From NCBI RefSeq assembly GCF_051903065.1, contig NZ_CP178438.1: a DNA stretch of 64,000 nucleotides, one strand, 5' to 3'. The notes below the pieces were generated by a model, which was given only the letters and a program-made list of their open reading frames with translations, ran no database searches and had not been told where the DNA came from. The position numbers and the translations under genes were made by a program. The DNA is from Escherichia coli (GTDB taxonomy: Bacteria; Pseudomonadota; Gammaproteobacteria; Enterobacterales; Enterobacteriaceae). Numbering within the stretch: position 1 is the first letter of the stretch; each line of letters opens with the position of its first letter. Positions 45,689 to 45,868 of this stretch are shown here, piece after piece.

Positions 45689-45868
45689 TTAGTCGGATTT
45701 ACGAATCATGAGACTTATAATGGAAGGAATGAGACTAAGCGGCCAGGTTAAACCTGTAATTATTGCAGCAAACAACCGATATGTTACTTTTTCTTCCGAG
45801 AAGATAAATATTAAAGTCGATGTCACAACCAGACCTATCAGGTAAGCTAACAGTAATTTATTGATCAC
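45689..45868 (-). CDS. Hypothetical small membrane protein (59 aa, two predicted TM helices), not in ORF track
   Basis: GTG start preceded by GGGGAGG with a 5-nt spacer. Translation VINKLLLAYLIGLVVTSTLIFIFSEEKVTYRLFAAIITGLTWPLSLIPSIISLMIRKSD. Below the track's 60-aa cutoff. Confidence 0.4.
   Translation of the reverse strand: MINKLLLAYLIGLVVTSTLIFIFSEEKVTYRLFAAIITGLTWPLSLIPSIISLMIRKSD

What the first reader, a model, noticed from the sequence alone, without database searches (positions are those of the whole stretch)
45689..45868. Unlisted 59-aa two-helix membrane-protein ORF with a strong Shine-Dalgarno, between the GH15-like gene and eivF
Minus-strand GGGGAGG-N5-GTG starts an ORF encoding two hydrophobic helices (LLLAYLIGLVVTSTLIFIF and LFAAIITGLTWPLSLIPSIISLMI). 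It is co-directional with the GH15-like gene and the eiv operon, and falls below the 60-aa track cutoff. Small membrane proteins like this are often missed and can be toxins, regulators of transporters, or T3SS-associated factors.
Basis: seen in the sequence. Interest (0 to 1): 0.45.

Follow-up and report, generated by a model that had tools for sequence, protein, structure and literature searches.

The report
Known GhoT/OrtT-family toxin gene in ETT2
The 59-codon ORF is a real, conserved E. coli gene, already annotated as ECs3735 / "GhoT/OrtT family toxin"; it encodes a small two-helix membrane protein related to known membrane-damaging toxins, so it is ordinary apart from a conserved pairing with the neighbouring glycoside-hydrolase gene.

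Summary
A minus-strand ORF at 45689..45868 (GTG start, GGGGAGG five bases upstream) encodes a 59-aa protein with two hydrophobic helices. It is "unlisted" only because of the 60-aa cutoff.

- **Identity.** RefSeq annotates exactly this ORF as WP_001301699.1 "GhoT/OrtT family toxin". The ETT2 literature lists it as ECs3735 (ydcX-like inner membrane protein). It matches Pfam PF10753 at E=1.2e-11 and keeps every invariant family residue.
- **Relation to known toxins.** It is a divergent third paralogue: 39% identical to GhoT and 25% to OrtT.
- **Conservation.** The frame is kept in E. albertii (61% identity, same synteny, dN/dS about 0.14 with synonymous sites saturated). It is also kept in Yersinia-type loci.
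- **No antitoxin found.** There is no GhoS homologue, Rfam match or conserved sRNA-like block nearby, so it looks like an orphan, as OrtT does.
- **Most likely role.** It is probably an inner-membrane, energy-dissipating peptide kept at low expression. This is inferred from homology; I found no functional study.
- **The one new point.** In 8 of 11 related loci this small gene sits beside the same GH15 gene, usually just after a hairpin. These loci lie at the edges of SPI-1-like type III secretion islands.

Low interest.

The parts
45689..45868 (-). ECs3735-type gene: 59-aa GhoT/OrtT-family small inner-membrane protein (GTG start, TAA stop)
   Evidence: ORF listing. Pfam PF10753 E=1.2e-11. Same coordinates annotated as WP_001301699.1 in RefSeq. 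dN/dS 0.14 against E. albertii. AF2 helical hairpin.
45874..45880 (-). Shine-Dalgarno sequence GGGGAGG, 5 nt upstream of the GTG
   Evidence: Sequence reading. The G-run carries a 1-nt indel polymorphism between strains.
45840..45881 (-). Predicted RNA stem-loop that pairs the SD and the GTG with codons 2-9; possible translational damping (inferred)
   Evidence: MFE and centroid folds, z = -4.2 to -4.6 for the region. The shape is not conserved in E. albertii.
45895..45925 (-). Stem-loop just after the GH15 stop (core CGGUCCU-N8-AGGACCG, 45899-45920); terminator or attenuator-like, with no U-tract in E. coli
   Evidence: Fold. A hairpin of different sequence sits at the same position in E. albertii, the Yersinia-type loci and L023.
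45935..47545 (-). Upstream partner gene: 536-aa GH15-family protein (pkgA/ECs3736-37 type) with an N-terminal signal and lipobox-like sequence
   Evidence: Pfam PF00723. PGAP annotation. Homologues carry an adjacent GhoT-like ORF in 8 of 11 loci.
44594..45343 (-). Downstream gene eivF (AraC/InvF-type ETT2 regulator), 345 nt after the toxin stop
   Evidence: Pfam HTH_18 and HTH_AraC. PGAP annotation.
45922..45922 (.). Left breakpoint of the common 8,736-bp ETT2 deletion, which removes this gene and eivF through eivJ in many E. coli
   Evidence: Of 3279 genomes matching the query, 1306 cover at least 80% of it; every listed partial match but one stops at query base 78-79, i.e. window 45922. Junction mapped between the imperfect 9-mers CATAATGAG and CACAATGAT.

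Best explanation
This is the ETT2-island gene ECs3735, a genuine conserved gene for a third, divergent E. coli paralogue of the GhoT/OrtT family.

Shown: the product is a 59-aa helical hairpin. It has helix 2-23, a polar SEEK loop, and a second hydrophobic helix kinked at the invariant G-x-T-W-P-x-S motif.

Inferred from GhoT and OrtT: it inserts into the inner membrane and, when made in quantity, damages the membrane. This would dissipate proton-motive force and ATP and cause growth arrest or lysis.

Shown as absence only: it has no cognate antitoxin next to it, so it behaves as an orphan, like OrtT.

Inferred: harm is avoided by keeping expression low. The features pointing that way are its location in an AT-rich (about 35% GC) horizontally acquired island, a hairpin between it and the upstream GH15 gene, a GTG start, and a local RNA structure covering the SD and start codon.

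It is inherited as a pair with the GH15 gene at the border of SPI-1-like T3SS islands. It is dispensable, because the commonest ETT2 deletion removes it.
For: - **Family membership.** PF10753 scores 45.1 bits against a cutoff of 22.1. RefSeq names it 'GhoT/OrtT family toxin'.
- **Similarity.** It is 39% identical to K-12 GhoT and 25% to OrtT. All family-invariant residues are kept: Y9, R31, G39, T41, W42, P43, S45.
- **Fold.** Two hydrophobic segments and an AF2 helical hairpin with pLDDT 87.7.
- **Purifying selection.** dN/dS is 0.14 against E. albertii with pS 0.69. There are no indels in the ORF, while the downstream spacer is unalignable.
- **No antitoxin candidate.** tblastn with GhoS gives E>=0.1 everywhere. 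There is no Rfam match and no conserved block in the spacer apart from the eivF leader.
- **Published behaviour of relatives.** GhoT and OrtT damage membranes and lower ATP. OrtT lacks any antitoxin and is not neutralised by GhoS (PMC4344625).
- **GH15 is not a required antidote.** O157:H7 F7508 has a frameshifted GH15 gene and an intact toxin gene.
- **Dispensable.** Only 1306 of the 3279 genomes that match the query cover at least 80% of it, and the listed partial matches end where the 8.7-kb deletion begins, upstream of the ORF.
- **Island composition.** GC is about 0.35 here against about 0.52 in flanking core genes.
Against: - Toxicity, membrane location and translation have not been measured for this protein. 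I found no functional paper and no expression entry in three EHEC RNA-seq/Ribo-seq supplements.
- It differs from GhoT and OrtT in having a charged C-terminal tail (RKSD).
- It has Ile where GhoT and OrtT have Phe38, the residue whose F38R change abolishes toxicity.
- The SD-masking structure is not conserved in E. albertii.
- The promoter-like hit inside the GH15 3' end is no better than chance.
- The persistent linkage to GH15 could mean a non-toxin role.
Confidence: 0.6

Rival explanations
1. The small protein is a dedicated membrane partner of the neighbouring GH15 lipoprotein, for example an anchor, a regulator or a release factor. On this view it is not a stand-alone toxin, and the two genes form a functional cassette.
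For: A GhoT-like ORF lies next to the GH15 orthologue in 8 of 11 independent loci, with GH15 at 54-76% identity. These loci are E. coli, E. albertii, L011, L012, L014, L021, L022 and L023. The other flanking genes differ between them. The two proteins diverge in step: 76/61%, about 58/40-42%, and 54/42%. The PF10753 family is small, with 13 representative clusters in 1.8 billion proteins.
Against: The linkage can be explained by shared descent of one ancestral locus. Each gene also survives loss of the other: GH15 is frameshifted with the toxin intact in O157:H7, and the toxin is a pseudogene with GH15 intact in Yersinia L014. GH15 occurs alone in L013, L016 and L018. A hairpin, terminator-like in Yersinia and L023, separates the two genes. 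GH15 has its own signal peptide or lipobox, so it does not need a holin.
Confidence: 0.2
2. It is a T3SS-associated accessory or regulatory membrane factor of ETT2. On this view it is co-expressed with eivF and the eiv operon and acts on secretion rather than on cell energy.
For: It is co-directional with eivF-eivG and immediately upstream of them, and no terminator-like site was found after the ORF on that strand. The same synteny holds in E. albertii. Homologues in other genera also lie beside SPI-1-type genes: an InvH homologue in L021, and HilA-like plus IagB-like genes in L022.
Against: I know of no homologue in the SPI-1 inv/spa/prg gene set. The gene stays intact in strains whose ETT2 apparatus is wrecked, including this window (IS insertion and truncated eivC) and DETEC-P169. 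The family's characterised members have nothing to do with secretion (PMC4344625).
Confidence: 0.08
3. It is a type V toxin held in check in trans by the core-genome antitoxin GhoS, which would cleave its mRNA.
For: It is closer to GhoT (39%) than to OrtT (25%). ghoS-ghoT is present in E. coli K-12.
Against: There is no ghoS beside it or anywhere in the window or in related loci. GhoS does not neutralise OrtT, which is far more similar to GhoT at 63% (PMC4344625). The coding sequence carries three GCU sites whereas ghoT has none, so the MqsR-sparing design of ghoT is absent (the feature itself is recalled from Wang et al. 2013).
Confidence: 0.06
4. It is a type I-like toxin controlled by a cis-encoded antisense or nearby small RNA.
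For: It is a small hydrophobic toxin-like peptide with a 345-nt spacer downstream. A plus-strand promoter-like site lies at 45400-45429 and a short plus-strand hairpin at 45744-45756.
Against: The number of promoter-like hits equals the shuffled expectation (4 found, 3.9 expected). The plus-strand hairpin is the coding sequence of the TGLTW motif and is not kept in E. albertii. The spacer is unalignable between E. coli and E. albertii apart from the eivF leader. There is no Rfam match.
Confidence: 0.04
5. It is a chance ORF in AT-rich intergenic DNA and is not a gene.
For: Short ORFs are abundant here, with 49 of at least 30 aa in 6 kb. No expression data were found.
Against: The Pfam hit has E=1.2e-11. 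The frame, length and motif are conserved across Escherichia and Yersinia-type loci, with dN/dS 0.14. The upstream and downstream DNA is not conserved in this way.
Confidence: 0.02

Closest known systems
GhoT (YjdO), toxin of the E. coli type V GhoT/GhoS toxin-antitoxin system
   Same: Same Pfam family (PF10753). Similar length (57 vs 59 aa) and the same two-helix topology. 39% identity over 46 residues, with shared Y, S-x-E-K, R and G-x-T-W-P-x-S-L motifs.
   Different: No ghoS upstream; a 536-aa GH15 gene and a hairpin stand in its place. GTG rather than ATG start. Three GCU sites against none in ghoT. Ile instead of Phe38. An extra charged C-terminal tail, RKSD. It sits in a horizontally acquired island present in only about 24% of complete E. 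coli genomes.
OrtT (YdcX), orphan toxin of E. coli K-12
   Same: Same family. It stands alone, without a recognisable antitoxin. The Sakai annotation already called ECs3735 'ydcX'-like (PMC3977695; PMC4344625).
   Different: Only 25% identity, less than to GhoT. Different locus and neighbours: yncL/ydcY against GH15/eivF. Nothing is known about induction, whereas OrtT responds to the stringent response.
GH15-linked GhoT-like ORFs of E. albertii and Yersinia enterocolitica (RefSeq 'GhoT/OrtT family toxin', uncharacterised)
   Same: True positional counterparts. They sit beside the orthologous GH15 gene, downstream of it after a hairpin in every locus except L021, where the ORF lies upstream. 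Length is 57-59 aa, identity to the window protein 40-62%, and starts are GTG or ATG.
   Different: The Yersinia-type proteins lack the charged C-terminal tail and end like GhoT (…LLFSxL). Their flanks differ (LysR, HilA-like/IagB, InvH and IS66 fragments), and one copy is a pseudogene.

Membership tests
Pfam PF10753 Toxin_GhoT_OrtT | Profile-HMM score above the curated gathering threshold | tested here: met
   45.1 bits against 22.1, E=1.2e-11, residues 4-46 on profile positions 3-46 of 55. No NCBIfam model reached its cutoff.
Pfam PF10753 Toxin_GhoT_OrtT | About 57 aa, with two hydrophobic helices joined by a short polar loop | tested here: met
   59 aa. Hydropathy gives two segments split by SEEKVTYR. 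AF2 gives H2-23, H28-40 and H46-58, pLDDT 87.7.
Pfam PF10753 Toxin_GhoT_OrtT | Conserved residues shared by GhoT and OrtT (Y, loop S-x-[ED]-K, R, G-x-T-W-P-x-S) | tested here: met
   Y9, S24, K27, R31, G39, T41, W42, P43 and S45 are invariant in the 3-way alignment. Of these, Y9, R31, G39, T41, W42, P43 and S45 remain invariant in the 11-way alignment, with S24 nearly so.
Pfam PF10753 Toxin_GhoT_OrtT | Phe38 (GhoT numbering), whose F38R change removes toxicity | tested here: inconclusive
   The aligned residue is Ile36 here, and I or V in the other GH15-linked homologues. It is hydrophobic but not Phe.
Pfam PF10753 Toxin_GhoT_OrtT | Growth inhibition, membrane damage or ATP loss on expression | not testable with these tools
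   Needs an expression experiment. No published test was found.
Type V toxin-antitoxin system (GhoT/GhoS) | ghoS antitoxin gene immediately upstream in the same operon | tested here: not met
   The upstream gene is GH15. tblastn with GhoS against the window and 23 loci finds nothing below E=0.1. The weak GhoS-GH15 similarity is chance-level and falls inside the catalytic domain.
Type V toxin-antitoxin system (GhoT/GhoS) | Toxin mRNA specifically cleaved by GhoS | not testable with these tools
   Biochemical assay needed. GhoS does not protect against OrtT (PMC4344625).
Type V toxin-antitoxin system (GhoT/GhoS) | Toxin coding region free of MqsR GCU sites (feature recalled from Wang et al. 2013, not re-read here) | tested here: not met
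   ghoT has 0 GCT, ghoS has 3, and this ORF has 3.
Orphan toxin (OrtT-like) | No adjacent protein or RNA antitoxin | tested here: met
   No GhoS homologue, no Rfam hit, and no conserved spacer element other than the eivF leader. This is absence of evidence only.
Orphan toxin (OrtT-like) | No antitoxin anywhere in the genome | not testable with these tools
   Only a 64-kb window is available. A genomic-library suppressor screen, as done for OrtT, would be needed.
Orphan toxin (OrtT-like) | Orthology to ortT/ydcX (same locus, high identity) | tested here: not met
   25% identity and a different locus.
Type I toxin-antitoxin | Cis-encoded antisense or adjacent sRNA antitoxin | tested here: not met
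   Promoter-like hits are at chance level, the flanks are not conserved, and no Rfam family matches.
Phage holin | Located in a lysis cassette beside an endolysin, with phage homologues | tested here: not met
   No tblastn match in 50,697 phage records. The neighbour is a GH15 enzyme carrying its own signal sequence.

The most novel reading that the evidence does not exclude
The GhoT-like peptide and the GH15 lipoprotein could form a previously unrecognised two-gene functional module carried at the borders of SPI-1-family type III secretion islands in Escherichia and Yersinia. The small membrane protein would control, anchor or release the glycoside hydrolase, or be controlled through it, rather than acting as a classical toxin-antitoxin toxin. 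That would give the GhoT/OrtT fold a physiological partner for the first time.
Probability: 0.15. Interest if true: 0.5.

Novelty: already known. Interest (0 to 1): 0.2.

Why it matters
For genome annotation it matters little.

Biologically it is a reminder that E. coli strains with an ETT2 island carry a third GhoT/OrtT-type membrane peptide. Nobody appears to have tested it, although ETT2 regulators next to it, such as eivF, are being studied for effects on virulence, and eivF mutants or deletions could disturb it.

The conserved pairing with a GH15 gene across genera is a cheap, testable lead on what orphan GhoT-like peptides are for.

Tried and rejected
- **GhoS-type antitoxin.** tblastn with K-12 GhoS against the window and all fetched loci gave nothing below E=0.1. 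A recurring weak hit inside GH15 was checked by BLASTP and rejected as chance: 13/38 identities, inside the catalytic barrel, and absent from the E. coli GH15.
- **RNA antitoxin or known sRNA.** Rfam at E<=1 over 45200-46100 gave no match. Promoter-like hits were at the shuffled expectation. The E. coli versus E. albertii spacer alignment shows no conserved block except the eivF leader.
- **Mobile-element origin.** tblastn against plasmids found only a mislabelled 4.9-Mb chromosome, and against phages found nothing. PADLOC defence models gave no hit.
- **Expression evidence.** Supplements of three EHEC RNA-seq/Ribo-seq/TSS papers contain no ECs3734-3736 or Z4198-Z4201 entries.
- **Papers not held.** The primary ETT2 papers (PMC415751, PMC529121) and the GhoT/GhoS paper (PMC3514572) are not in the library.
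- **Genome-contig scan.** The exact-peptide patterns were too strict and returned only a contaminated 'Collinsella' MAG contig. The diverged orthologues came instead from the representative-protein search and contig look-ups.
- **My interim reading that the Yersinia copies have no T3SS context.** This was corrected. Longer contigs show HilA-like, IagB-like and InvH-like genes nearby.
- **Solved structures.** None exists for the family.

Full report
**1. The observation**

On the minus strand, GTG at 45868-45866 opens a 59-codon frame that ends at TAA 45691-45689. GGGGAGG (45880-45874) sits five bases upstream. The product is MINKLLLAYLIGLVVTSTLIFIFSEEKVTYRLFAAIITGLTWPLSLIPSIISLMIRKSD. It lies between a GH15-family gene (45935-47545) and the AraC-type regulator eivF (44594-45343), and all three are co-directional.

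Short ORFs are plentiful here, with 49 of at least 30 aa in 6 kb, so the ORF alone proves nothing. The evidence below does.

**2. What it is**

- The protein matches Pfam PF10753 (Toxin_GhoT_OrtT) at 45.1 bits against a gathering score of 22.1, E=1.2e-11.
- A megablast of the locus against 5,426 complete E. coli genomes found it in 3,279. In every full-length hit sampled, PGAP annotates exactly this 180-bp ORF as 'GhoT/OrtT family toxin' (WP_001301699.1 in the 100%-identical strain 23CRST027 and in O157:H7).
- The ETT2 review by Zhou et al. lists it as ECs3735, 180 bp, 'ydcX, inner membrane protein', between eivF (ECs3734) and pkgA (ECs3736) (PMC3977695). ydcX has since been renamed ortT (PMC4344625).

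So the gene is publicly annotated. It was 'unlisted' only because of the 60-aa track cutoff.

**3. The start codon**

Some records give a 78-aa product beginning MRRSWIKRT…. The strain alignment shows this extension comes into frame only in alleles with a 1-nt deletion in the G-run of the SD (GGGGAGG to GGGAGG). In this window the same stretch is closed by TGA at 45925-45923. A region whose frame differs between strains is not coding. The GTG is conserved, and E. albertii starts one codon away with ATG.

**4. Relationship to known toxins**

- Against K-12 proteins taken from NC_000913.3 it is 39% identical to GhoT and 25% to OrtT. GhoT and OrtT are 63% identical to each other.
- All residues invariant across an 11-sequence family alignment are present: Y9, R31, G39, T41, W42, P43, S45.
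- Hydropathy gives two hydrophobic segments separated by SEEKVTYR.
- AlphaFold2 on that alignment gives helices 2-23, 28-40 and 46-58, with a break at the TWPLS motif, mean pLDDT 87.7.

There are three differences from GhoT and OrtT:
- A charged C-terminal tail (RKSD; HKSEQ in E. albertii).
- Ile at the position of Phe38, where F38R abolishes GhoT and OrtT toxicity (PMC4344625).
- A GTG start.

**5. Conservation**

A search of 1.84 billion representative proteins found only 13 hits, so the family is small. One hit (P0082, 61% identical, 59 aa) is the E. albertii protein. It is encoded in the same order, GH15-ORF-eivF-eivG-eivE-eivA-eivC.

Nei-Gojobori comparison of E. coli with E. albertii:

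| Gene | pS | pN | dN/dS |
|---|---|---|---|
| Small ORF | 0.69 | 0.23 | 0.14 |
| GH15 | 0.71 | 0.14 | 0.07 |
| eivF | 0.60 | 0.06 | 0.06 |
| eivG | 0.69 | 0.07 | 0.04 |

The ORF aligns without indels, whereas the 340-nt spacer behind it is essentially unalignable. Within E. coli, five alleles differ at ten ORF columns, six of them synonymous (my reading of the alignment).

**6. Surroundings and the GH15 linkage**

Two further homologues (P0083 and P0084, 57 aa, 44-45% identity by HMMER and 40-42% in my six-sequence alignment; P0084 and a member of P0083's cluster are labelled Yersinia enterocolitica) again lie immediately downstream of a 540-aa GH15 gene. I then looked at the neighbourhoods of GH15 homologues found by protein search and scanned them with tblastn.

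Loci with an adjacent GhoT-like ORF:
- E. coli (this window) and E. albertii.
- L011 and L012.
- L022, where the ORF was uncalled and starts with GTG.
- L023, where the ORF was uncalled and is an intact 57 aa.
- L014, where it is a pseudogene with TAG at codon 27 and TWP changed to TWI.
- L021, where the ORF lies upstream of GH15, beside an InvH homologue and IS66 fragments.

Loci without one:
- L013, which has prgHIJK/orgA on one side and ParAB and SopD on the other.
- L016/L017, where IS66 follows directly.
- The Commensalibacter loci L018/L019.

L022 shows that the Yersinia-type locus also carries HilA-like, IagB-like and GerE-type regulator genes. The pair therefore sits at the edge of SPI-1-family T3SS islands in more than one genus.

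In every GH15-then-ORF locus a stem-loop of unrelated sequence follows the GH15 stop. In L023 it is a textbook intrinsic terminator. In E. coli it is CGGUCCU-N8-AGGACCG (45920-45899) with no U-tract, and only 31 nt separate it from the GTG. Transcripts reaching the ORF must therefore pass through it.

**7. Antitoxin search**

- No GhoS homologue occurs in the window or in any related locus. A weak GhoS-GH15 similarity is chance.
- No Rfam family matches 45200-46100.
- Promoter-like hits equal the shuffled expectation.
- The only conserved non-coding block is the roughly 90 nt in front of eivF.
- ghoT contains no GCU triplet while ghoS has three. This ORF has three, so the MqsR-sparing design recalled for ghoT is not shared (PMC5408214, for MqsR cleaving the ghoS part).
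- GH15 is not a required antidote. O157:H7 F7508 has a frameshifted GH15 gene and an intact toxin gene, and the converse occurs in Yersinia L014.

**8. Dispensability**

Only 1,306 of the 3,279 matching genomes cover at least 80% of the query, that is, carry the ORF region. In the listed partial matches, all but one end at query base 78-79, which is window 45922. Comparing such a strain (L008) with O157:H7 (L020) maps an 8,736-bp deletion between the imperfect 9-mers CATAATGAG and CACAATGAT. It removes the hairpin, the ORF, and eivF through most of eivJ.

The gene persists intact in strains with other ETT2 lesions. These include this window, where an IS-type transposase gene (37396-38364) abuts a truncated eivC, and DETEC-P169. 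No copy was found on plasmids or phages.

**9. Likely mechanism**

- **Shown.** It is a conserved gene for a two-helix GhoT/OrtT-family peptide, with no neighbouring antitoxin candidate, in a 35%-GC island.
- **Inferred from the family** (PMC4344625). It inserts in the inner membrane, and when abundant it damages the membrane, lowers ATP, and arrests growth or lyses the cell.
- **Inferred from anatomy.** Expression is kept low by the upstream hairpin, by the GTG start, and by a local fold that pairs the SD and start with codons 2-9 (z about -4.5 for the region). That fold is not conserved in E. albertii.
- **H-NS silencing.** This is plausible from published work on ETT2 (PMC11068852) but was not tested for this gene.

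**10. Verdict**

What I can add is that it is a distinct, GH15-linked lineage of that family, is orphan-like, and has not been tested experimentally. Interest is low (0.2). The only reading that would raise it is a functional GH15-peptide module (probability about 0.15).

Noticed in passing
window 36062-39686: The ETT2 cluster in this window is internally deleted. An IS-type DDE transposase ORF (37396-38364, minus strand) lies between a ygeH/HilA-like gene (36062-37354, plus strand) and a truncated eivC/sctN ATPase gene (38676-39686, 336 aa where O157:H7 has a 1,293-bp gene). The prg/org/epa genes are absent.
   Followed up: partly
window 45922 (junction); L008 1571-1579; L020 11071-11079 and 19807-19815: The widespread 8,736-bp ETT2 deletion has its left end 13 bp after the GH15 stop, inside the hairpin. 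It lies between the imperfect 9-bp repeats CATAATGAG and CACAATGAT. Only 1,306 of the 3,279 matching complete E. coli genomes retain most of the query, and all but one of the listed partial matches end at this breakpoint.
   Followed up: yes
window 45344-45430, mini-ORF 45355-45378 (minus strand): The roughly 90 nt upstream of eivF are almost identical in E. coli and E. albertii, while the rest of the spacer is unalignable. The block contains a 7-codon mini-ORF (ATGGAGAATGAGAATATGGAATAA) ending 11 nt before the eivF ATG. It may be a leader peptide or regulatory leader.
   Followed up: no
window 45874-45880; alignment A2 columns 118-127: A 1-nt indel polymorphism in the G-run of the Shine-Dalgarno sequence (GGGGAGG or GGGAGG) shifts an upstream ATG into frame. 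This explains the 78-aa 'putative membrane protein' annotations, for example in E. coli 042.
   Followed up: yes
window 47480-47545 (N-terminus of GH15, minus strand); L009 433-510: The GH15 protein starts with a signal sequence ending in a lipobox-like motif (…AGIFSC in E. coli, …TSVLAC in E. albertii). This suggests an exported lipoprotein. It rests on sequence reading only, with no predictor run.
   Followed up: no
L004 1-1566 (O157:H7 F7508); L014 6687-6857 (Yersinia enterocolitica): Decay is reciprocal. In O157:H7 the GH15 gene is frameshifted while the small toxin gene is intact. In one Yersinia strain the toxin gene has an in-frame TAG and TWP changed to TWI while GH15 is intact.
   Followed up: partly
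L013 1-11647: A 65%-identical GH15 gene lies between prgH-prgK/orgA-type T3SS genes and ParA/ParB-like plus SopD-like genes, with no GhoT-like ORF. It may be a plasmid-borne SPI-1-like system of unknown host (Logan DRR526056).
   Followed up: no
L010 (JAIJJM010000090.1); H26 (NZ_CP134663.1): There are two database oddities. A contig binned as 'Collinsella sp.' MAG carries this E. coli ETT2 segment at 97% protein identity, which is probably binning contamination. A 4.9-Mb E. coli chromosome is filed as a plasmid in PLSDB.
   Followed up: no
window 48057-48710 (minus strand); L001 1315-2070: The LysM/M23-type gene actS (ygeR) next to tRNA-Gly(CCC) (47779-47852) is flagged as a pseudogene with an internal stop in the 100%-identical RefSeq strain. 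The window ORF there is only 217 aa and starts at TTG.
   Followed up: no
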